Of a stretch of DNA of 27,387 bases, positions 11,080 through 25,540 are shown one piece after another. The stretch's first letter is position 1; every line of letters begins with the position of its first letter. The position numbers and the translations under genes were made by a program. Under the pieces are notes generated by a model. The model saw nothing but the letters and a program-made list of their open reading frames with translations. It did no database searches and was not told the origin of the DNA. Location of the stretch: the IMG/VR virus record IMGVR_UViG_3300014890_000018, positions 1-27,387 of that record; one strand, 5' to 3'. The DNA is from a virus. Taxonomy: Duplodnaviria > Heunggongvirae > Uroviricota > Caudoviricetes.

Positions 11080-13701
11080 TTATCGTCCTGATTGCTGGCC
11101 GTTCTGGAAAATGTTAATCAGGTTGTCGCGCTGACTTTCTGCGCTGTATTCCTTAGACTGTCCGGGAGTATATTTCACCGGAGTATCAATGAACTTGGTA
11201 ATGCGGTTCCATACTGATCGGTTGGTTGTTCCCAGTTTCGCCAGATCGTTGAACGTCACCGTAATCGGGTTGCCGTCGGCACCGTTGACGATCAGCCCGT
11301 TGAGCATCAGGGTAAGTCCTGTTTCGTCGCTGTTGGTAACCCACTGCGCATTATCACGAATGCGGGAGATACTCTGCTCACGGTTGACCTCATCAGGTAG
11401 CCTTGGGTCACCAATAAGCGGCATAATCTGATCTGCTGACAGGTTTTTCAGATACGCATTGGCACCATCGTTAACATCACGAATATCTATCCCTGCACGC
11501 TTAGGTAGCCGCCAAGTGCCATTGGTCTGGTACTGCTCGCCGAGGATGTCCTGATACGCCTGTTTTGCTGCATCAGACGCCGACATTCCGCGCTGCATGT
11601 TGATGTAAGTAAGTCGTTTTCCCTGCTCGTTGAAGTTATTCCACACGGCAGTGCCACCAGGCTGAACAACCATCGTGCCAGCAAAATCTTTCGATTGGTC
11701 ATTCCATGACGAGTCGGCGCTATCCGCGTCGGTTTTCTCAAGACTGCCGCGTAAGTCAGCAGTTTTAACGCTACGGTTTTGCCAGAGCGCATTTGCCGCG
11801 CGCGGGTTCTCGGTAGCCATGACAACCTGCAACGCAGGATAAGCGCTCTTCTGAACCTGCTGCATCACCTGATCCGAGTATTTGCCGAACGACTGCGCCA
11901 CCGACTGAATGGCCTTTACGCTAGATTCCTGCGTGTTGTCAATACGCTGCAGTACGTCGTTGACCATGGACTCCGGTAAAACTTTTTTGCTCATTATCCC
12001 CAGGCGGTCTTTTTCAGACTGTATGCGGGAAACTAGGTATTCACCAGATGAAGGGTCATTGAGGTACTGCTGGAATGCAGCCTGCACAACCGGAGAGTTT
12101 TGTTGCAGCCATGCCCCCGGATCCGCTTCCCGCGCCTTCAGTACCTGCCCAAGCTTGACCTTTGCCGATGCATAAAGCTCTGCTTTGTATTTAAAGTCAG
12201 GGTCGTTTTCCTGCGGTGCCATTGCCTGCACGGCGGCGGTACCCTGCTGGACGTTGCCCTGCATAATGGTCTGATAAACAGGTTGTAGCGTCATTGCCTG
12301 CTGGTATTGCTGGAAGGTTTTTTCCATCTGCAGGCGCTCGGCAGGCGCTGCCTGAAGCGGCATAACGGCGGCCCATTCGTGCGCTGAAATAGGCGTCACC
12401 TGCTTACCGGCCTCAATTTTGGATAGGTCGTCCTGCATTCGACTCTGTAGCGCAACGCGACCGGCTGAAGCCTGCATGTCGTACATGCCAGCAACCTTGC
12501 TCATCATCTGCGACTTTTTGTCCGGACTCATGGCGTTCCAGAATGGCTGTGCGATGAGGTTTTCCATCGTCGCAGATCCAGGAATAGCTCCAGCACTGCC
12601 AGTTACTTTTGCCACATAATTGCGCGTCTCGTCGTATGGGATAGCTGCGGCAAACTGGGCGTTACTGACTTCGCCTGTGCGCGGATCGCCAATCTGTTTA
12701 ATCCAGCCGTCAACCTTTCCTGGGCCAGCGTTATAGGCAGCTACTGCCAGAACCGGGTTATTGTCGTATTTCTTCATCTGCGCGCCGAAATAAGCTTGCC
12801 CCAAGCGGGCATTATAGCGCGGGTCATTCAACCATTTATCTCGGTCCCACGGCACGCCAGCAAGGCGGGCAGCTTCGGGGCCAGTATCTTCCGTCACCTG
12901 CGCTACGCCAACAGCGCCTTTTGGCGACACCAGAGGCGTTCCGTCCTTTCCGTACTGATTTCCGCCACTCTCCTGCCAGATTATTGCAGAGAATAACTGC
13001 GCCTCACTCGGTGTATCGGTTACCTCAATCTTGCCGTTCGGACCCATCATCTGTTGATACATCGGCACATACCACGCCTCCGCCGCACCGTTCGCGGCAT
13101 TCTCGCGCCACGAAACCCAGTTCTGTTCGATCTCTTCCTGACTCTGGCCGTGGGCTTCGCCGTAAGCGATGATGCTATGATATGCCTTCAATCCTGCCTG
13201 GTTTGCCATTGTCGGGTTACGGAACTGCATCGATAGGTTTTTTAGTGTCGCATCCTGCATATCCGCCTCATACTGGCGAACCTGTCCTATCTCGTGCCGC
13301 CCGGCCTGCGTAGTGAACTGAATACGCTGCTGCTGTGCCTGCCGCATGAAAGCATTACGAGCCTGTTCATCCGGCAGCGACATAGCCAGTTGCTCGACCT
13401 GGGCATCAAACTGCTGCGTATACTCCTGACCTTTTCCAATAGCATTTTTCCCTTTCAGGTTAAGCAAACCTGTTTCAGGGTTATTCAGCAGATCGCTGCT
13501 TATCTGGCTTAAGCTAAGAGAAGCCTCCTGAGCCATAGCAACATTCGCACGCTGTTTTGCCTGCGCAATAATACCTGCATATTGCTCTGCAACATCGCCA
13601 AGTACATCACCGACATTTGGTGTCTGAAACGATGAGAATCCCTGCGTCGAAATCCCTCTGCTTTGAACCTGACGGCCCGATGTTGTTGGTACAACTGGCA
13701 T
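11080..13701 (-). CDS. Internal virion protein with lytic transglycosylase (SLT) domain (873 aa)
   Basis: SLT signature read from the translation: AIIWQESGGNQYG ... GAVGVAQV ... AAYNAGPGKVDGW (catalytic Glu-Ser and AYNAGPG motifs), roughly nt 12700-13010; equivalent to the peptidoglycan-cutting ejection protein of T7-like phages. Confidence 0.8.
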   Translation of the reverse strand: MPVVPTTSGRQVQSRGISTQGFSSFQTPNVGDVLGDVAEQYAGIIAQAKQRANVAMAQEASLSLSQISSDLLNNPETGLLNLKGKNAIGKGQEYTQQFDAQVEQLAMSLPDEQARNAFMRQAQQQRIQFTTQAGRHEIGQVRQYEADMQDATLKNLSMQFRNPTMANQAGLKAYHSIIAYGEAHGQSQEEIEQNWVSWRENAANGAAEAWYVPMYQQMMGPNGKIEVTDTPSEAQLFSAIIWQESGGNQYGKDGTPLVSPKGAVGVAQVTEDTGPEAARLAGVPWDRDKWLNDPRYNARLGQAYFGAQMKKYDNNPVLAVAAYNAGPGKVDGWIKQIGDPRTGEVSNAQFAAAIPYDETRNYVAKVTGSAGAIPGSATMENLIAQPFWNAMSPDKKSQMMSKVAGMYDMQASAGRVALQSRMQDDLSKIEAGKQVTPISAHEWAAVMPLQAAPAERLQMEKTFQQYQQAMTLQPVYQTIMQGNVQQGTAAVQAMAPQENDPDFKYKAELYASAKVKLGQVLKAREADPGAWLQQNSPVVQAAFQQYLNDPSSGEYLVSRIQSEKDRLGIMSKKVLPESMVNDVLQRIDNTQESSVKAIQSVAQSFGKYSDQVMQQVQKSAYPALQVVMATENPRAANALWQNRSVKTADLRGSLEKTDADSADSSWNDQSKDFAGTMVVQPGGTAVWNNFNEQGKRLTYINMQRGMSASDAAKQAYQDILGEQYQTNGTWRLPKRAGIDIRDVNDGANAYLKNLSADQIMPLIGDPRLPDEVNREQSISRIRDNAQWVTNSDETGLTLMLNGLIVNGADGNPITVTFNDLAKLGTTNRSVWNRITKFIDTPVKYTPGQSKEYSAESQRDNLINIFQNGQQSGR

Positions 13702-20704: not shown

Positions 20705-20997
20705 TCCTGTTCACTGGCCTCTTTGGCCATCTTCAAATACTGTTCAGGGCAATGCGCCATAACGCGCTGAAACAGTTCCAGCGCCAGATTGCGTTGCCCC
20801 TCATTAAATGCCATTGCCATAGCGTCCATCGGTGAGATAGCGGAAAACACACGGCCTTTCTCCAGCACCGACCAGACAACGCGACGCCCCTGTTCACTGC
20901 TCATGACAAAGCGAATGTCATCAATTTCACGCTGTGCCATGTCACGTTGCTTACGGGCGTTTTCTTCTTTCATTTGATCGTCTTCGTAATCTGTCAT
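20701..20997 (-). CDS. Hypothetical small protein between portal and scaffold (98 aa)
   Basis: Translationally coupled at both ends (overlaps the portal stop and the scaffold start); acidic. Confidence 0.5.
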   Translation of the reverse strand: MTDYEDDQMKEENARKQRDMAQREIDDIRFVMSSEQGRRVVWSVLEKGRVFSAISPMDAMAMAFNEGQRNLALELFQRVMAHCPEQYLKMAKEASEQE

Positions 20998-22673
20998 TGT
21001 GATTGCCCACCCTGACCACTAACTGCATTCGCCATAGCTGACAAAACACTCGGATCCGAAGTTTTAGCTTCGCTTAGCGTCTTGGCACCCTGTGCCGCCG
21101 CCATCCCCATCGCCATCATTTGTTGCTGCTGTTGTTGCTGTGCCCGTTGCTGGCGAGCCTGCTCAACCTGTTCCTGCGGAACAATGACGGTTGGAGACAC
21201 TCCGGACATATCAGCGAATGCATCGATCGCCTGATCAACGTTGAGTTTGTCGAGAGCTTCTGGTTTCGCTTGCGCAAGTTGACCAATGAAGTTAACCGTG
21301 GACGCCAGACTGGACAGGCCGATAGACTTCTGCGCCTGAGCCATGACGGAAATGTATTCGACCTTCAGGGGCATGCCTTCCATCGCGTCAGGCGGTGGCG
21401 GCAGCATGTTTTTACGCACCATCATCGAGAAAGCGCGGTCAATGAGAGGATTAAGACATTCGTCGTTCAGACGCTCCAGAACCGGCCCCAACATCAGAAG
21501 TTTTTCTTCTTTCATTTCGATCACTGCTTCAACAGGCATCGAGCGGGTATTGATGTTGTGCAACATCATGAACAGATCGACAAAGTAGGCGCTGTTAATG
21601 ATTTGGCGAGTGTCCTGAATGTCTGCTACCAGATCTGCTGTACTGGGGTTAACCAGATAAGCAGGCCTGAAACCATCCTGACCAGTAATCTGATCGATAT
21701 ACGTGATGTCGCCAGGAAGAAGGGATGCGCGCTGATTCTTGAGGGAAGTCGGAGCAACCATCGGCGGATTGGTGGCTTTATCAATCAACTGCGACTTACG
21801 CTTCTGGAGAAGCTGCAATGCCTTAACAGGTCCAAGCGCCAGCATACCCGGGCATGATGATCCATAAACATCTTCGCCGTTAACTTCCCAGCGCGGAGCC
21901 ATAATTGGAAACTCATCGAATCCGGACTCACGCAACAACTTGTCGTTATCGCCGCCAACCTCGTAATAAACCGATTTGAATGGCTTGTTCTTGCTATCCA
22001 GCTTCGATGTATCGCGGTCAATGTTCGGGTAAACCGAATGCATCACTTCAATCCACTTCTCGTAGGTGCCGCTTTCCCACATGCTTTTTACGGATTCGCT
22101 GACGTTATTTAGCCCGAACTCCTGAACAAGCTGACGAACAGTCATAGAGAACTTGCGAAAACAGGTGTCCACACTGCCACGAGGTGAGTTAGCCAGGTAG
22201 TAACTGCCTATAGGGAATGGCATTGTGCGAATGATGTCCTCGTCATCATCCAGCACCGCCATTGCACCAGTGCTGTATGTGCCGAGGCTTCCGTATAACT
22301 GCGGCAGCGACTGATAGAGATTCGACTTATTGAACATATCGTTCATGCGGTTCTGCACCGCCTCAAGCCACAACTTAACAGGGCCATAATCCATCATTTC
22401 AGGATCTGGCGTAGCCAGGCGAAACCACGGACGCGCGGGGCTTGTGATGCCTGACATCATGCCGCTGGCGAGAGTGCGCGCCGCCATAGTCCCGGTCGAA
22501 TCAATAATGCGTGTATTGCGTCGATCGTTACGGTTGACCTCAGAAGTCAGAAAGCGGGAACCACGCGGGTTGATGTAATCACTCAACTCGCGCCAGTGCG
22601 GCTCGAACGACTGACGCTCGCTTTCAAGTTGTGCGAACTGTTTGTTCAATCGCTCTTTAGTTGTTTCCGCCAT
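20994..22673 (-). CDS. Portal (head-to-tail connector) protein, T7-type (559 aa)
   Basis: Size and position downstream of the terminase genes; Gln-rich C-terminal tail (QQRAQQQQQQQMMAMGMAAAQ); RBS GGAG 8 nt upstream. Confidence 0.85.
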   Translation of the reverse strand: MAETTKERLNKQFAQLESERQSFEPHWRELSDYINPRGSRFLTSEVNRNDRRNTRIIDSTGTMAARTLASGMMSGITSPARPWFRLATPDPEMMDYGPVKLWLEAVQNRMNDMFNKSNLYQSLPQLYGSLGTYSTGAMAVLDDDEDIIRTMPFPIGSYYLANSPRGSVDTCFRKFSMTVRQLVQEFGLNNVSESVKSMWESGTYEKWIEVMHSVYPNIDRDTSKLDSKNKPFKSVYYEVGGDNDKLLRESGFDEFPIMAPRWEVNGEDVYGSSCPGMLALGPVKALQLLQKRKSQLIDKATNPPMVAPTSLKNQRASLLPGDITYIDQITGQDGFRPAYLVNPSTADLVADIQDTRQIINSAYFVDLFMMLHNINTRSMPVEAVIEMKEEKLLMLGPVLERLNDECLNPLIDRAFSMMVRKNMLPPPPDAMEGMPLKVEYISVMAQAQKSIGLSSLASTVNFIGQLAQAKPEALDKLNVDQAIDAFADMSGVSPTVIVPQEQVEQARQQRAQQQQQQQMMAMGMAAAQGAKTLSEAKTSDPSVLSAMANAVSGQGGQSQ

Positions 22674-22687
22674 TTCAATGACTCCGG

Positions 22688-22894
22688 TTACTGACCAAGT
22701 AGCGTTTTACCGCTGGTATTAGCGGTTGATGTGTCGCCCTGAGAACCGGTAAGCAGCGTAGAACTACGACCAGCAGCAGCGCGACGACGACGTGTTTCTT
22801 CGTCGCGGGCATCAACAACGGCGGCATCCTGCTCCTGTGGTGCTGCCTGAACTTCTGGTGTTGCAGGCACTGATGGTGAGCTACCCATGCACAT
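22688..22894 (-). CDS. Possible small ORF upstream of portal (68 aa), low-complexity
   Basis: ATG preceded by the same 11-nt translation-initiation sequence as the portal gene (GGAGTCATTGA + 1 nt + ATG); its stop overlaps the portal RBS. Protein is low-complexity, so coding status is uncertain. Confidence 0.35.
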   Translation of the reverse strand: MCMGSSPSVPATPEVQAAPQEQDAAVVDARDEETRRRRAAAGRSSTLLTGSQGDTSTANTSGKTLLGQ

Positions 22895-22922
22895 ATCAAT
22901 GACTCCGTACGCAATTAAATTA

Positions 22923-22998
22923 TTACCAATTTAACCACATATGATTTATTTATCGTAGATAGTTGACATTTAACGCACAAATTATTACCTTTCAGGTA
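22923..22998. promoter_or_regulatory. Divergent regulatory region B (between the portal unit and the tRNA cassette) carrying the shared motifs AACCACATATG and ATTACCTTTCAGGT
   Basis: AACCACATATG at 22934-22944; ATTACCTTTCAGGT at 22985-22998 containing the inverted repeat TACCT-TTC-AGGTA; TTGACA at 22964-22969 on the plus strand; minus strand reads TTGTGC-N17-TACGAT (promoter-like). Confidence 0.5.
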
Positions 22999-23049
22999 AG
23001 CAAAGAGTTCATTCCGGTTATTAACCTGACTGGCTTGTCGTTAAATTGA

Positions 23050-23321
23050 ACAGGTGGAGTGAGCTTTTATTTTGAGCAGTACGGCGTATGGCACATGCGA
23101 CGATAGCGGTCTGGATACGTTTAAGGGGCACCCTCCCTTGCTCGGGCAAACGAACCAGGTAGCCGGAATGTGCAAGTCGAGCGGTTTTATTCCGCGCACG
23201 GGGATTCACCATCCCGGCGATTCGGTGTGACGCCTCGGAAGAGACGAGGGTACAACGATGAGAGCATTTATGGAGCCGCGACAAAGTGTGGCGCCTTAAC
23301 AGGCTAAGTGCTCTCAGCGTT
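23050..23321 (+). ncRNA. Candidate structured non-coding RNA or long tRNA leader upstream of tRNA-Arg
   Basis: About 270 bp of GC-rich sequence with several local hairpins (gcgg-ttttatt-ccgc; cggg-N9-cccg; cctcg-gaagaga-cgagg) and no convincing ORF on either strand; sits between a promoter-like region and the tRNA. Confidence 0.3.
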
Positions 23322-23398
23322 GTGGCATTAGCTCAGCTGGACAGAGCAACCGCCTTCTAAGCGGTTGGTCGCAGGTTCGAATCCTGCATGCCACGCCA
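23322..23398 (+). tRNA. tRNA-Arg (anticodon UCU, reads AGA), phage-encoded
   Basis: 77-nt cloverleaf read by hand: acceptor GTGGCAT/ATGCCAC, D-stem GCTC/GAGC, anticodon stem ACCGC/GCGGT with loop CTTCTAA (anticodon TCT), T-stem GCAGG/CCTGC with loop TTCGAAT, discriminator G, encoded CCA. Resembles the enterobacterial argU tRNA but differs in the stems. Confidence 0.9.
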
Positions 23399-23441
23399 GA
23401 ATCACGCCTAAGGACCGTGATGCCAGAAGTTCCAGGGGCTT

Positions 23442-23483
23442 GGCGGTGATGGTTTCCCTTGAAGGACTATCACCGCCCTTTTT
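23442..23483 (+). terminator. Rho-independent terminator after the tRNA
   Basis: 9-bp stem ggcggtgat / atcaccgcc with an 18-nt loop, followed by cTTTTT. Confidence 0.5.
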
Positions 23484-23561
23484 ACAGCAGGACGCCATTG
23501 CGATGACTTCATGCTGTAAACCAGTACAGCCACGGAAGGCATAACTCATTGCTTCCAGTTC

Positions 23562-23584
23562 GCCCGGTTCGCCGGGCATTTTTT
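23562..23584 (+). terminator. Strong rho-independent terminator (UUCG tetraloop) immediately upstream of the 125-aa ORF
   Basis: Stem gcccgg / ccgggc, loop ttcg, then aTTTTTT; only 12 nt before the ATG at 23597. Confidence 0.65.
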
Positions 23585-23596
23585 AAAGGTGAGATT

Positions 23597-23974
23597 ATGA
23601 ACGACCAGCAAATCGAAAAAGAAATCGTTGAGAAAGGCAAAACGGCACCGCGAATCACCCCGCAGCACATCGAAGACGTGATTATTAGTGAGCACTATTT
23701 CACGGCTGCAGAAGGGGTTCATGGCGCTAATGAGCTTTTAAAACCGCATGAAAGCCCAATTGACTATTACCAGGAAGCGCACCCTGCTGAGTCACTTCTG
23801 ACCTTCTGCGTTCTGGTGCTGCGCAACGGATTTACTGTAACCGGAGAAAGCGCCTGTGCAAGCCCGGAAAACTTTGATGCAGAAATTGGTCGGAAGATTG
23901 CCCGGCAGAATGCTGTAAACAAAATCTGGATGCTTGAAGGTTACTTGCTGAAGCAGAAGTTAAGCGAGCAATAA
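23597..23974 (+). CDS. Hypothetical protein (125 aa) in the tRNA cassette, function unknown
   Basis: ATG at 23597 with RBS AAAGGTGAG 4-12 nt upstream (the track ORF starts earlier at 23549); plus strand, antisense to the structural operon; followed by palindrome and terminator. Confidence 0.6.
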   Translation: MNDQQIEKEIVEKGKTAPRITPQHIEDVIISEHYFTAAEGVHGANELLKPHESPIDYYQEAHPAESLLTFCVLVLRNGFTVTGESACASPENFDAEIGRKIARQNAVNKIWMLEGYLLKQKLSEQ

Positions 23975-23994: not shown

Positions 23995-24021
23995 AGCCAG
24001 CCTATGAGCTGGCTTTGTTTT
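23995..24021 (+). terminator. Rho-independent terminator ending the plus-strand tRNA/ORF cassette
   Basis: Stem agccagc / gctggct with loop ctatga, followed by ttgtttt. Confidence 0.55.
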
Positions 24022-24064: not shown

Positions 24065-25540
24065 TTAAGCATAAGGGTCATAATCCGTTATGGCCCTTCC
24101 CTGCTGGCTTTGCTGTCCTGGTATATTTATGCGTTTCGAGACCGGGAAAGCAAACGTCAGCAGTAGCGCATCGCCTTTACCCGGAGAACGCCCAAGCCGC
24201 TCCTTGATATCTTCCTTCGGTTCGATAACGACTTTACCGTCCACTCGAACTTTGTACTCTGCCGCCGACAGGTCGTCTGCAGTTTCCTGGTCATCCAGCA
24301 TGCCGCCGAGCCTCAGCCATGTCTTGCATGAGTTGAACATCTCCCCACGCTTGTTAAGCATCTGCGGGTCAGTGGACGCACCGCCGAACGGAACAAGTTG
24401 CCATGTACGTCCCCAGCCATCACCGATTGACTTCAAACCGGTTCCGTAACCGAAGTCGATGAACACTGCGTCAGCCTGGTACTGGTCTTCAAAGTCAGCG
24501 ATACGCTTCGCCATAATCAGATCGTCAGTGGTCTTGTTGCCAGTCCATAGCACCTTACTGTGCAGCCCCTGCCGCAGGTATATCACAGCGTCATCAACGC
24601 CGGAGTATGCCGGGTCAACGCCGATTATCACCGGAGCATGTGCAACCTGCGCAGCGGTTACCACCCGTTTCATTGCCTCGTCAGTAAGGCCGGTAGGGAT
24701 AAACTGTAATTCAGATGCATCAGGGAATATGCCGCGCACACGGATTTTAACGAAGTCGCTGTCTTCCCCGTAGTCATCAACCCATTTCTGCAACTGCTGT
24801 TTGTTAGTGCCTTCCACCGTCCGGCTGTCAATCTGCGCAGTTTTCCAGCGGTGTTTATATTTGCGGAAACATTCGCGGAAACGCCCGGTGTTACGTGTAG
24901 GGTTTCCGAACGCCACCCAGATAATCTCAGTGTCTTCGTCCGTAAGCGCACCCTCAGCAACTTCCCACACCAGATCCGCAATGTTCGACGCTTCATCGAA
25001 TACCACGATGATGCGTTTGCGCTCGTTGTGTAGTCCGGCGAATGCCTCAGTGTTGTGCTCAGACCAGGGTATTGCGTCAGCTCGCCACCGCTTGTCGTGC
25101 CCAGGGTCATTGCTGTACATCGCGGTAGCGGTACAGGTAAACCAGTCTTTCGTGATAGCAAGGTTCGACCACTTGATAATTTCCGGCCAGGTCTTCGTTC
25201 GTAGCTGGTTGTCGGTGTTGGCGGTCACCACGACCTTACAATCCTCGCAAGTGGACATGCCCCAGTTGATCAGCATTGAGATGAATGCGGATTTACCAAT
25301 ACCGTGACCAGAAGCACGTGCCAGCATAAGCGGCTGATATCGCGTCTCTGGATTCTGCAGGTGATCACGTATCTCTCGGAACGCATCGGCCTGCCACTGA
25401 CGTGGACCGGTGGCATGTGCCAGTTCAGTACCCTCTTCCCCCCACGGGAACGCATAGAGGGCATAGCCAAGCGGATCGTGAGTGAACCCTGCAATATCCT
25501 CGATTAACTGCTCTTCAGGAGATAACGCTGTATCTGTCAC
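24065..25540 (-). CDS. Terminase large subunit (491 aa)
   Basis: Walker A-type motif ARASGHGIGKSAF near the N-terminus, acidic nuclease-type C-terminal half, ATGA-type overlap with the TerS stop. Confidence 0.9.
   Translation of the reverse strand: MTDTALSPEEQLIEDIAGFTHDPLGYALYAFPWGEEGTELAHATGPRQWQADAFREIRDHLQNPETRYQPLMLARASGHGIGKSAFISMLINWGMSTCEDCKVVVTANTDNQLRTKTWPEIIKWSNLAITKDWFTCTATAMYSNDPGHDKRWRADAIPWSEHNTEAFAGLHNERKRIIVVFDEASNIADLVWEVAEGALTDEDTEIIWVAFGNPTRNTGRFRECFRKYKHRWKTAQIDSRTVEGTNKQQLQKWVDDYGEDSDFVKIRVRGIFPDASELQFIPTGLTDEAMKRVVTAAQVAHAPVIIGVDPAYSGVDDAVIYLRQGLHSKVLWTGNKTTDDLIMAKRIADFEDQYQADAVFIDFGYGTGLKSIGDGWGRTWQLVPFGGASTDPQMLNKRGEMFNSCKTWLRLGGMLDDQETADDLSAAEYKVRVDGKVVIEPKEDIKERLGRSPGKGDALLLTFAFPVSKRINIPGQQSQQGRAITDYDPYA

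What the first reader, a model, noticed from the sequence alone, without database searches (positions are those of the whole stretch)
23050..23321. Unexplained structured GC-rich non-coding stretch upstream of the tRNA
The stretch has no credible ORF; the only long ORF is an antisense, very basic 87-aa artefact. It contains several perfect short hairpins. It could be a phage sRNA, a long tRNA precursor leader, or a remnant of a host tRNA locus or attachment site captured with the tRNA.
Basis: inference. Interest (0 to 1): 0.45.

Follow-up and report, generated by a model that had tools for sequence, protein, structure and literature searches.

The report
New structured phage early-leader RNA
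The stretch is the core of an unannotated, strongly conserved folded RNA that lambda-like, P1-like and epsilon15-like temperate phages of enterobacteria place in their repressor-controlled early transcripts, most likely so that RNA polymerase can read through the terminators that follow.

Summary
Window 23077-23322 (+ strand) is non-coding and folds into a conserved multi-helix RNA. It has stem I, P2, P4 with a pseudoknot, P5 and a long P6 hairpin that ends on base 1 of tRNA-Arg(UCU).

Folding energy alone is not significant; the evidence is covariation. In two independent sequence sets, 96-97% of pairs are kept, against 30-45% in slid controls.

No Rfam family matches. The family occurs in about 20% of complete E. 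coli genomes, always unannotated, and in phages of three unrelated types:
- epsilon15/phiV10-like phages, which is the window;
- P1-like phages, inside the ban operon;
- N-less lambdoid phages, including cdtI, mEp460 and Stx2a/Stx2c phages.

In the lambdoid phages it is the first thing transcribed from pL and is followed by strong terminators. In all three types the promoter is controlled by the prophage repressor.

My best guess (about 0.4) is a cis-acting RNA that modifies RNA polymerase for terminator read-through, working like HK022 put. It is not a put member: covariance models of the two families do not detect each other.

The main rival (about 0.25) is a stable early RNA released by RNase P at the adjoining tRNA or tRNA-like module.

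The parts
22963..22999 (+). Putative promoter (TTGACA 22963-22968, 17-nt spacer, TACCTT 22986-22991) overlapped by the operator-like inverted repeat TTACCTTTCAGGTAA (22985-22999).
   Evidence: Read from the sequence. The same TTACC-N5-GGTAA motif occurs in the repressor/cro-like intergenic region of the 99%-identical phage phiV10. The epsilon15 record annotates a repressor site in the equivalent region. The consensus promoter scan did not call it, so the promoter is inferred.
23000..23076 (+). Lineage-specific 5' leader, including the hairpin at 23014-23033.
   Evidence: Conserved only among epsilon15-like phages. It lies outside the family covariance-model match.
23077..23251 (+). Conserved core of the RNA family, matched end to end by covariance model R2.
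   Evidence: 145.3 bits, E = 2.9e-42.
23082..23102 (+). Stem I: CGGCGUAU / AUGCGACG with the invariant loop GGCAC.
   Evidence: Pair 10-22 of alignment A2 is A-U in 17 sequences and G-C in 16, with none unpaired. The U-G pair 11-21 is invariant.
23105..23176 (+). P2 domain. It comprises invariant AGCGGUC, the basal helix UCUGG/CCAGG (23110-23114 with 23155-23159), a variable distal hairpin with an apical CUUG motif, and the invariant junction GGUAGCCGGAAUGUGCAAG (23158-23176).
   Evidence: Basal pairs covary: C-G to U-A in 7 sequences and G-C to A-U in 2. CUUG is present in 43 of 63 distinct P2 segments, against 9 expected.
23181..23195 (+). P3, a variable hairpin (GCGG-UUUUAUU-CCGC in the window).
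   Evidence: Seen in the sequence. Its length and sequence are not conserved across the family, so it was left out of the model.
23201..23227 (+). P4 hairpin GGGA-UUCACCA-UCCC (23201-23215) and pseudoknot: loop CACC pairs with GGUG (23224-23227).
   Evidence: P4 has 3 of 4 pairs with changes on both sides. The pseudoknot is 100% paired, and 3 sequences switch C-G to A-U (AACC:GGUU).
23233..23249 (+). P5 hairpin CCUCG-GAAGAGA-CGAGG with a conserved GAAGAG loop.
   Evidence: 3 of 5 pairs change on both sides.
23253..23322 (+). P6, a long hairpin (CAACGAUGAGAGCA ... UGCUCUCAGCGUUG) with a variable tip. Its last G is base 1 of the tRNA.
   Evidence: All 20 distinct variants tested form 15-16 bp between their own arms. 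The mean is -19.4 kcal/mol, against -13.2 when arms from different variants are mixed.
23322..23398 (+). tRNA-Arg(UCU). It occupies the slot that holds a tRNA-like cloverleaf module in lambdoid copies.
   Evidence: ARAGORN and Rfam.
23401..23421 (+). Conserved hairpin AUCACG-CCUAAGGAC-CGUGAU after the tRNA.
   Evidence: Present after the tRNA or tRNA-like module in many epsilon15-like and lambdoid loci.
23442..23483 (+). Intrinsic terminator 1 (GGCGGUGAUGG...CUAUCACCGCC followed by CUUUUU).
   Evidence: Terminator scan. The GGCGG..CCGCC plus U-tract hairpin is conserved in related loci.
23562..23584 (+). Intrinsic terminator 2 (GCCCGG-UUCG-CCGGGC followed by AUUUUUU), immediately before the ORF.
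   Evidence: Terminator scan.
23597..23974 (+). 125-aa ORF of the N4 Gp49 / Sf6 gene 66 family. It is the only protein gene of this + strand unit and is followed by a terminator at 23995-24021.
   Evidence: Pfam PF13876, E = 6e-36. Terminator.

Best explanation
The element is a cis-acting leader RNA of repressor-controlled early transcripts.

Proposed mechanism: as it emerges from RNA polymerase it folds into stem I, P2, P4 with its pseudoknot, and P5, with many invariant junction bases. It then stays bound to the polymerase that made it and makes that polymerase resistant to pausing and termination. Transcription can then pass the tRNA or tRNA-like module and the intrinsic terminators that follow, and reach the downstream early genes. 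It would work like HK022 put RNA or Bacillus EAR, without an N-type protein.

Shown here:
- the conserved fold and its strand;
- the position in early transcription units under repressor control;
- the terminators downstream;
- the lack of an N gene in the lambdoid carriers.

Inferred:
- binding to RNA polymerase and antitermination itself;
- the exact promoter and transcription start.
For: 1. **Same niche as putL or nutL-N.**
   - In cdtI, mEp460, Stx2a/Stx2c and many uncultured lambdoid phages, the element starts about 110-160 nt after the stop codon of a CI-type repressor (HTH plus S24 peptidase).
   - It lies just after that gene's own terminator and the TTGC-N7-GCAA operator repeats, so it is the first RNA made from pL.

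2. **Terminators stand between it and the genes.**
   - In mEp460 a 13-bp hairpin plus U-tract and a 25-bp hairpin precede the first early-left ORF. This stretch folds with z = -4.35.
   - In the window two intrinsic terminators (23442-23483 and 23562-23584) and no promoter-like site precede the only ORF.
   - 85 of 95 distinct loci have at least one terminator-like site before the first same-strand ORF (a lenient finder).

3. **The carriers have no N.**
   - mEp460 has Q but no N. Its first early-left product is acidic and not N-like.
   - Six diverse carriers show no N-type family.
   - The literature says SfII/SfIV/SfV-type phages lack N (PMC3851460). It also says phage LLS, which has the same yfdQ-type early-left genes, has no N and 'may' use a put-like RNA, with none identified (PMC12315714).

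4. **Repressor control in all three phage types.** The lambdoid copies sit at pL. The P1 copy is in the ban operon, downstream of the C1 operators at Pban. The window copy follows a promoter overlapped by the phiV10 immunity-type operator.

5. **Only the core is constant; what follows varies.** It can be a tRNA, a tRNA-like module, an ORF start (L067) or ban (P1). That is expected if the target is the polymerase rather than a particular downstream sequence.

6. **Partial resemblance to put.**
   - The lower part of stem I has nearly the same sequence (ACGGCG...AUGCGUCG).
   - The order GC-GG-[hairpin]-GC-(N)-AAUG parallels put residues G43 to U65, including G45 and A64, whose mutation inactivates put.
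   - A composite motif written from both families hits 131 element sites, 57 put sites and nothing else in 5.4 Mb (post hoc).

7. **One copy per genome has a likely precedent.** The HK639 stretch I read annotates only a putL-like site.
Against: - There is no experiment and no transcript data of any kind.
- Covariance models of put and of the element do not detect each other, even with filters off.
- The core (about 175 nt, or 245 with P6) is much larger than put (about 70 nt).
- In P1 no convincing terminator lies between the element and ban, and the element sits 2.3 kb from Pban.
- In the window the unit is short: one small ORF.
- The terminator after the tRNA or tRNA-like module is itself conserved and travels with the block. 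That would also fit a self-contained RNA gene.
- ST64B has the same P6, tRNA-like module and terminator but a different 5' domain.
- epsilon15 has lost most of the element, so it is dispensable there.
- The enrichment of terminators over control DNA is modest with my finder: 5.3 against 3.2 per kb.
Confidence: 0.4

Rival explanations
1. A stable early non-coding RNA that acts in trans, for example in host takeover, anti-defence or as the RNA part of a ribonucleoprotein. The unit would be an RNA gene with its own promoter and terminator. RNase P would cut at the 5' side of the adjoining tRNA or tRNA-like cloverleaf and release core plus P6 as a discrete species of about 245 nt. Precedents (from my own knowledge) are MALAT1-mascRNA processing, and the P1 c4 RNA precursor and T4 species 1/2 RNAs among phage tRNA-linked RNAs.
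For: - P6 ends exactly on tRNA base 1.
- Where there is no tRNA, the same slot holds a cloverleaf-like module. It is closed by GUUGUGGUG/CACCACAAC and has D-like and T-like arms, some with canonical GGUUCGAUUCC T-loops.
- A conserved hairpin and a conserved terminator follow in both epsilon15-like and lambdoid loci.
- The many invariant unpaired bases and the pseudoknot are typical of RNAs with a ligand, a protein partner or catalytic activity.
- Other large phage RNAs, GOLLD and ROOL, are also associated with tRNAs (own knowledge).
Against: - In P1 and in locus L067 the core runs straight into a protein gene, with no processing module and no terminator. This suggests a cis role.
- In lambdoid phages a terminated RNA gene placed between the only early-left promoter and its operon would block early genes unless something allows read-through.
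- No stable transcript has been shown.
Confidence: 0.25
2. A conditional attenuator, riboswitch-like or sensing a tRNA or protein. The core would bind a metabolite, alarmone or factor and thereby set how much transcription passes the downstream terminators. This would tie early phage gene expression to host physiology.
For: - It sits in a 5' leader.
- It has aptamer-like architecture with invariant junctions and a pseudoknot.
- Terminators lie downstream.
- GUUG is shared between P6 (CAAC/GUUG) and the next helix (GUUGUGG/CCACAAC), so alternative pairing is conceivable.
Against: - The distance and the content between core and terminator vary from 0 to more than 300 nt.
- I found no conserved mutually exclusive pairing between the core and a terminator.
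- The P1 and L067 copies lack a terminator.
- Rfam riboswitch models do not match.
Confidence: 0.1
3. Merely a long 5' leader or processing scaffold of the phage tRNA-Arg precursor, with no function beyond tRNA maturation or expression.
For: It lies directly upstream of the tRNA and would be co-transcribed with it in the window and in 28 other loci.
Against: - The same RNA is conserved at about 80% identity, with covariation, in lambdoid phages that have no tRNA there.
- In P1 it lies downstream of a tRNA.
- It is more conserved than whatever follows it.
Confidence: 0.07
4. Not a functional RNA: a remnant of a host tRNA locus or attachment site, a protein-coding gene on either strand, or a chance structure.
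For: - Antisense ORFs over it have been annotated as hypothetical proteins in mEp460.
- Its folding energy is unremarkable.
Against: - Covariation on the + strand, with invariant U-G pairs.
- Frame-breaking length variation between invariant blocks.
- Presence in only about 20% of E. coli genomes, in prophages and plasmids.
- attP lies elsewhere.
Confidence: 0.03

Closest known systems
HK022 / HK639 put RNAs (cis-acting antiterminator RNAs of N-less lambdoid phages)
   Same: - Same genomic niche: just downstream of pL in lambdoid phages that lack N, and ahead of terminators.
- The RNA is on the sense strand.
- The HK639 stretch I read annotates only a putL-like site, so a single copy may have a precedent.
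- The lower part of stem I has nearly the same sequence.
- A similar GC-GG-[hairpin]-GC..AAUG arrangement is present.
   Different: - put is about 70 nt with two stem-loops. This core is about 175 nt (245 with P6), with at least five helices and a different pseudoknot.
- Covariance models of the two families do not cross-detect.
- It also occurs in P1-like and epsilon15-like phages.
- Activity on RNA polymerase is untested.
EAR (eps-associated RNA of Bacillales), a processive antiterminator RNA inside an operon
   Same: It is a structured RNA of more than 100 nt with a pseudoknot that can sit inside an operon, as the P1 copy does. It is thought to let polymerase read through distal terminators (own knowledge).
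   Different: There is no sequence or model similarity; nothing in Rfam matched. The hosts and gene contexts are different.
Lambda nutL plus N protein
   Same: It occupies the same position in the pL leader, and the need to pass early terminators is the same. The P5 hairpin with its GAAGAG(A) loop loosely recalls boxB (GAAGA loop; own knowledge).
   Different: The carriers have no N gene and I saw no boxA. The element is far more elaborate than a nut site.
GOLLD and ROOL large phage-associated RNAs
   Same: These are large, ornate, conserved RNAs of temperate phages. They are often next to tRNA genes or even contain them, and their function is unknown (own knowledge; 10.1101/2024.12.08.627333 turned up).
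   Different: Neither Rfam model matches. This element is smaller, is restricted to Enterobacteriaceae and Erwiniaceae, and occupies a defined promoter-proximal position.
RNase P-dependent release of an RNA by a downstream tRNA-like structure (MALAT1-mascRNA; P1/P7 c4 RNA precursor; T4 species 1/2 RNAs)
   Same: A structured RNA lies directly upstream of a tRNA or a tRNA-like cloverleaf.
   Different: Processing has not been shown here, and some copies (P1, L067) have no such module.

Membership tests
HK022-type put antiterminator RNA | Sequence and secondary structure of the family: two stem-loops, about 70 nt, conserved GAACGGCGCG...AAACCAUGCGUCGG...GGCGGG...CGGCAAU. | tested here: not met
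   - Covariance model R1 was built from 15 put sequences. It scores HK022 putL at 97 bits, HK639 putL at 86 bits and HK022 putR at 52 bits.
- It gives no match with E up to 10 at the element in the window, mEp460, P1, Tyrion or the Stx2a phage, with filters off.
- The element model R2 gives no match at E up to 5 to the put sites in the HK022 and HK639 stretches searched.
- Only partial motif similarity remains.
HK022-type put antiterminator RNA | Located in the promoter-proximal leader of an early operon of a lambdoid phage that lacks N, upstream of terminators. | tested here: met
   This holds for the lambdoid homologues. The window copy is in a different phage type, but it also lies behind a promoter with a repressor operator and ahead of two terminators.
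HK022-type put antiterminator RNA | Acts in cis on RNA polymerase through the beta' zinc-binding domain and suppresses pausing and termination. | not testable with these tools
   This needs in vitro transcription, reporter assays and rpoC mutants.
Any Rfam 15 family (including tRNA leaders, riboswitches, ribozymes, GOLLD, ROOL, c4, 6S, tmRNA) | A match to the family covariance model at or near its gathering score. | tested here: not met
   - At gathering thresholds the only hit in the whole window is the tRNA.
- The permissive search of 22850-23650 (E up to 10) gives nothing inside 23050-23321.
Riboswitch / transcription attenuator | An aptamer directly coupled to an expression platform, with mutually exclusive terminator and antiterminator pairing. 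| tested here: inconclusive
   - The architecture is aptamer-like.
- What follows the core is variable and no conserved competing helix with a terminator was found.
- Ligand binding cannot be tested here.
Simple tRNA 5' leader | Present only as the upstream part of a tRNA precursor, with no conservation independent of the tRNA. | tested here: not met
   The element is conserved in loci with no tRNA (L002, L003, L007, L008) and downstream of a tRNA in P1.
attP or captured host tRNA locus | Identity to a chromosomal tRNA locus or attB, and proximity to the integrase. | tested here: not met
   - Only 1064 of 5426 complete E. coli genomes have it, and 276 of the 1241 places are on plasmids.
- In phiV10-type phages attP is beside int and attB is in guaA.
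- In phiV10 the integrase gene lies about 24 kb from the element.
Protein-coding gene (sense or antisense) | A conserved reading frame. | tested here: not met
   The lengths of the segments between invariant blocks fall in all three mod-3 classes: 16/11/6 and 15/11/7.

The most novel reading that the evidence does not exclude
A third, much larger class of protein-independent antiterminator RNA. Temperate phages as different as lambda-like phages (including Stx2a/Stx2c converting phages), P1 and epsilon15/phiV10 would use it to program host RNA polymerase at the start of lytic development. It would be built as a modular RNA whose 3' slot accepts either a real tRNA or a tRNA-like cloverleaf. This would explain how the large group of N-less lambdoid phages express their early-left operon.
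Probability: 0.35. Interest if true: 0.85.

Novelty: new variant of a known kind. Interest (0 to 1): 0.72.

Why it matters
E. coli phages are the best-studied viruses there are. Yet this RNA is present in P1, in Stx2-converting phages and in about a fifth of complete E. coli genomes. It has no Rfam family and no annotation in any record I looked at, and several records annotate spurious ORFs over it.

If it is an antiterminator, three things follow:
- It answers an open question stated in the literature: how lambdoid phages without N, and without a recognisable put, get past their early terminators.
- It adds a structurally new RNA that reprograms RNA polymerase.
- It gives a handle on early gene expression of Stx2a/Stx2c phages.

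If instead it is a released stable RNA, it is an enterobacterial counterpart of the enigmatic tRNA-associated phage RNAs such as GOLLD and ROOL, in a genetically tractable host.

Tried and rejected
- **Rfam.** Neither gathering nor permissive thresholds gave anything but the tRNA. A weak RyhB-like hit at 23531-23585 (E = 3.4) is just a hairpin plus terminator 2.
- **Folding energy as evidence.** It is not significant on either strand, so I dropped it in favour of covariation.
- **RNAalifold on the MAFFT alignment.** It preferred a long-range helix pairing the invariant GCACAU with the invariant AUGUGC. I rejected this as the primary fold. The perfect G-C to A-U covariation at columns 10 and 22 supports the local stem I. 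The invariant pair of segments may still form a pseudoknot or an alternative structure; this cannot be tested by covariation.
- **put membership.** Rejected by reciprocal covariance-model searches.
- **boxA/boxB reading of P5 and P6.** The boxA-like UGCUCU in P6 is base-paired and is not kept in covarying variants.
- **CsrA-sponge idea.** GGA motifs are not enriched. This was a count by eye, not a tool result.
- **N-like first gene.** Rejected.
- **A second copy at pR.** mEp460 has none.
- **ST64B as a carrier.** It lacks the core.
- **ARAGORN on the lambdoid tRNA-like module.** It calls nothing down to 80% of the default thresholds. The two calls at 70% are unconvincing intron-containing models.
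- **RNAalifold on P6 arms joined by an artificial loop.** It predicted no pairs because of register shifts, so I replaced it with per-sequence folding.
- **My terminator finder.** It is lenient, with 3.2 hits per kb in control DNA. The terminator count is only weak support.
- **Literature searches.** Searches for this RNA under several descriptions found nothing.
Full report
**Where the window comes from**

The window is a phage or prophage of the genus Uetakevirus (epsilon15/phiV10-like). Bases 22900-23600 are 99.3% identical to phiV10 and to O157 typing phages 9 and 10.

The finding lies in a small + strand island. On either side are late genes on the - strand: a 68-aa gene and the portal gene (20994-22894) on one side, and the large terminase gene (24065-25540) on the other.

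The island contains, in order:
- an AT-rich putative promoter region;
- the element;
- tRNA-Arg(UCU) at 23322-23398;
- a hairpin;
- two intrinsic terminators;
- a 125-aa ORF of the Gp49/Sf6 gene 66 family;
- a third terminator.

**Checking the observation**

The description is accurate.
- The only long ORF is the antisense 87-aa one.
- Several perfect short hairpins are present.
- G+C is moderately raised: 55.5% against 50.4% for the window.

Minimum free energy is not significantly lower than in shuffled sequence on either strand. Rfam has no match at gathering or permissive thresholds. On these criteria alone the stretch would be unremarkable.

**Relatives**

A sensitive BLAST of 23040-23325 found 86 phage records. 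The epsilon15-like phages were expected. The others were not:
- About 245 nt are roughly 83% identical in lambdoid phages: cdtI, mEp460, 2H10, Ayreon and Stx2c-converting phages. Stx2a-converting phages and 1720a-02 match over about 190 nt at roughly 80%.
- About 165 nt are roughly 80% identical in P1, P7, D6, SJ46 and RCS47.

In complete E. coli genomes, 1064 of 5426 carry the element. There are 965 places on chromosomes and 276 on plasmids. None of the 40 records listed has a feature annotated under the match.

A degenerate pattern from the most conserved 5' block retrieved more than 120 IMG/VR contigs holding 94 distinct variants. A second pattern found full-length copies in 23 contigs of GTDB species genomes. 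All but one are from Enterobacteriaceae or Erwiniaceae, including Citrobacter, Klebsiella, Kosakonia, Enterobacter, Kluyvera, Buttiauxella and Erwinia. The exception is a 1.75-kb contig labelled as a Bacillota metagenome bin.

**Structure**

An alignment of 33 representatives less than 88% identical to one another shows invariant single-stranded blocks separated by helices that vary in sequence and length. In window coordinates the model is:
- **Stem I**, 23082-23102, with the invariant loop GGCAC.
- **Invariant block** AGCGGUC.
- **P2**: basal helix 23110-23114 with 23155-23159, and a variable tip.
- **Invariant junction** GGUAGCCGGAAUGUGCAAG, 23158-23176.
- **P3**: a variable hairpin.
- **P4**, 23201-23215, with the conserved loop YUCACCA.
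- **Pseudoknot** between the loop's CACC and GGUG at 23224-23227.
- **P5**, 23233-23249, with a GAAGAG loop.

Pair counts on this model are as follows:

| Measure | Observed | Partners slid by 1-3 columns |
|---|---|---|
| Cells paired | 96.5% | 31-45% |
| Pairs changed on both sides | 14 | 3-6 |
| Cells changed on both sides | 86 | 3-15 |

None of 500 shuffles reaches the observed values on four of the five measures; for further pair types, 35 do.

Further support:
- A covariance model built from this alignment (R2) matches the window at 23077-23251 with 145 bits.
- On 21 distinct genomic copies outside the seed, the same structure is 97.4% paired, with 13 pairs changed on both sides.
- The pseudoknot is supported by one covarying position, CACC:GGUG becoming AACC:GGUU, in 3 sequences.
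- Two U-G pairs are invariant and several more are frequent. This fixes the + strand as the RNA strand.
- Spacing between invariant blocks varies in all mod-3 classes, so no protein frame is conserved.

P6 (23253-23322) is a long hairpin with a variable tip. Each of 20 distinct variants forms 15-16 bp with its own partner arm. The mean is -19.4 kcal/mol, against -13.2 for arms swapped between variants.

RNAalifold proposed a different fold for the 5' part. It paired two invariant segments, GCACAU and AUGUGC. The perfect covariation within stem I argues for the local hairpin. The invariant segments may form an additional tertiary or alternative pairing.

**Context**

*Lambdoid phages.* The element follows the CI-type repressor gene on the same strand. 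Reading the mEp460 sequence gives this order:
- the cI stop codon;
- cI's own terminator;
- two TTGC-N7-GCAA repeats like those in the cI-cro intergenic region, which I read as oL/pL;
- the element about 40 nt later;
- about 320 nt of highly structured RNA (z = -4.35), containing a 13-bp hairpin plus U-tract and a 25-bp hairpin;
- only then the first early-left ORF.

The same layout recurs with very different element variants in a dozen uncultured lambdoid contigs. There a repressor-sized gene ends roughly 110-400 nt upstream of the element (most often about 110-160 nt), with divergent genes beyond it.

*Absence of N.*
- mEp460 has Q but no N and only this one copy.
- Its first early-left protein is acidic and not N-like.
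- No N-type family was found in six other carriers.
- Published genome papers state that SfII/SfIV/SfV-type phages lack N (PMC3851460).
- They also state that phage LLS, with the same yfdQ-type early-left genes, has no N and 'may' use put-like RNA, without identifying one (PMC12315714).

*P1.* The element lies in the ban operon, which starts at the C1-controlled promoters P1ban/P2ban. It begins 15 nt after tRNA-Ile and ends about 100 nt before ban.

*The window.* The putative promoter (TTGACA, 17 nt, TACCTT) is overlapped by TTACCTTTCAGGTAA. This is the same inverted-repeat motif found in the repressor/cro-like intergenic region of phiV10. The epsilon15 record annotates a repressor site in the homologous region.

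In all three phage types, therefore, the RNA belongs to an early transcript that is switched on when the prophage repressor is removed.

**Comparison with put**

HK022 putL and putR were located in the genome. Their numbering was checked against the cryo-EM paper (PMC9782041).

The lower five pairs of stem I have the same sequence as in many element copies, including the G-U pair, and the 3' strand of stem I is the same. The window itself has a G-A mismatch at that position. After stem I both RNAs show GC-GG-[hairpin]-(1-2 nt)-GC-(0-3 nt)-AAUG. In put this stretch holds G45 and A64, whose mutation inactivates the RNA.

I wrote a composite motif from both families. It matches 131 element sites, 57 put sites and nothing else in 5.4 Mb, and nothing in shuffled data. 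Because it was written after seeing both families, it is only suggestive.

Objectively, the families are distinct:
- A put covariance model built from 15 diverse put RNAs finds HK022 putL, HK022 putR and HK639 putL. It does not find the element at E up to 10 with filters off.
- The element model does not find put.

I therefore do not file the element under put. I do propose that it works like put.

**The unit is larger than the finding**

After P6, the bases GUUGUGG(UG) pair with (CA)CCACAAC 100-190 nt downstream. Together they close a cloverleaf-like module with a D-like hairpin, a long central arm and a T-like hairpin that abuts the 3' strand. Some variants have canonical GGUUCGAUUCC T-loops.

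In the window and in 28 other loci, a genuine tRNA-Arg(UCU) occupies exactly this slot. A conserved hairpin (window 23401-23421) and a conserved GGCGG..CCGCC plus U-tract terminator (23442-23483) follow in both epsilon15-like and lambdoid loci.

Other arrangements also occur:
- ST64B shares P6, the tRNA-like module and the terminator, but has a different 5' domain.
- P1 proper has only the core.
- Some lambdoid phages replace P6 with another structured module.
- epsilon15 retains only the first 55 nt or so. This looks like a deletion between the near-identical loop sequences of P2 and of the terminator.

The RNA is thus modular, and the core is the unit that defines the family.

**Weighing the explanations**

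A cis-acting effect on the transcribing polymerase best fits four facts taken together:
- Only the core is constant.
- It is always co-oriented with, and upstream of, whatever follows: a tRNA, a tRNA-like module, terminators, or directly an ORF.
- It sits where N-less lambdoid phages must solve the terminator problem.
- It partly resembles put.

I give this about 0.4.

The main rival, at about 0.25, is a discrete early RNA released by RNase P. It fits the tRNA or tRNA-like neighbour and the conserved terminator. It fits poorly with P1 and L067, and with the position between pL and its operon.

The remaining alternatives rank lower, for the reasons given in their entries: a conditional attenuator, a mere tRNA leader, and a non-functional remnant.

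Nothing here shows a transcript, a processing event or an effect on termination. Those steps are inferred.

**Verdict**

It is a widespread, unannotated, covariation-supported RNA family of temperate enterobacterial phages, and it comes with a testable mechanistic hypothesis.

Noticed in passing
window 23322-23483; L002 2733-2932; loci: The slot after P6 holds either a real tRNA-Arg(UCU) or a cloverleaf-like tRNA mimic. The mimic is closed by GUUGUGGUG/CACCACAAC and has D-like and T-like arms; some variants have canonical T-loops. A conserved hairpin and a conserved terminator follow, so a noncoding block of about 400-500 nt is shared by epsilon15-like and lambdoid phages.
   Followed up: partly
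L005 2040-2131 (epsilon15): epsilon15 itself keeps only stem I and the start of P2, and lacks the tRNA. The junction falls in UUCCCUUGAUGCU, a sequence that related phages carry both in the P2 loop and in the loop of terminator 1. This suggests a deletion of about 370 nt by recombination between the two loops.
   Followed up: partly
L280 7239-8053, minus strand (ST64B): The 815-nt gap between cI and the first early-left gene of ST64B has no element core and no put. It contains a different structured 5' domain of about 330 nt, followed by the same P6, tRNA-like module and terminator. This may be another unrecognised leader RNA class.
   Followed up: partly
loci L035, L036, L062, L072, L095, L254, L256: In some lambdoid copies P6 is replaced by another conserved structured module: AUCAGCCAUUCACGCUAAGCAUC...GUGCUUAGCGGGACUGGAAGAGUUACCACUUGGAGACGGUCC.
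   Followed up: no
window 22923-22936 and 22985-22999: An operator-like TTACC-N5-GGTAA and a half-site lie in the divergent promoter region between the portal operon and the RNA unit. They match the motif in the phiV10 immunity region. The prophage repressor may therefore act directly at this late-region locus.
   Followed up: partly
window 23110-23159 and 23442-23477: The apical loop of P2 carries CUUG in 43 of 63 distinct variants, against about 9 expected. CUUG is complementary to the invariant CAAG of the junction. The loop of terminator 1 carries the same UCCCUUG motif. Either a tertiary contact or a shared binding partner is possible.
   Followed up: partly
window 23021-23284 (-) and 23328-23579 (-); mEp460_036/037; cdtI orf40; PhiV10p04: ORFs annotated as hypothetical proteins in public records lie antisense to the RNA, the tRNA or the terminators. 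They are probably annotation artefacts.
   Followed up: partly
window 12811-12885 (+): The put covariance model gives a weak match here (13.7 bits, E = 0.09). It lies within a long ORF on the opposite strand and has several unpaired positions, so it is most likely chance.
   Followed up: no
window 23322-23398: In the near-identity search, 64 Synechococcus phage records matched part of the 701-nt query. I presume this is the tRNA-Arg gene alone; I did not check.
   Followed up: no
L004 769-870 (P1): The P1 ban operon that carries the element also begins with a dicF-like region and two other tRNAs. Much of this early operon is therefore non-coding RNA.
   Followed up: no
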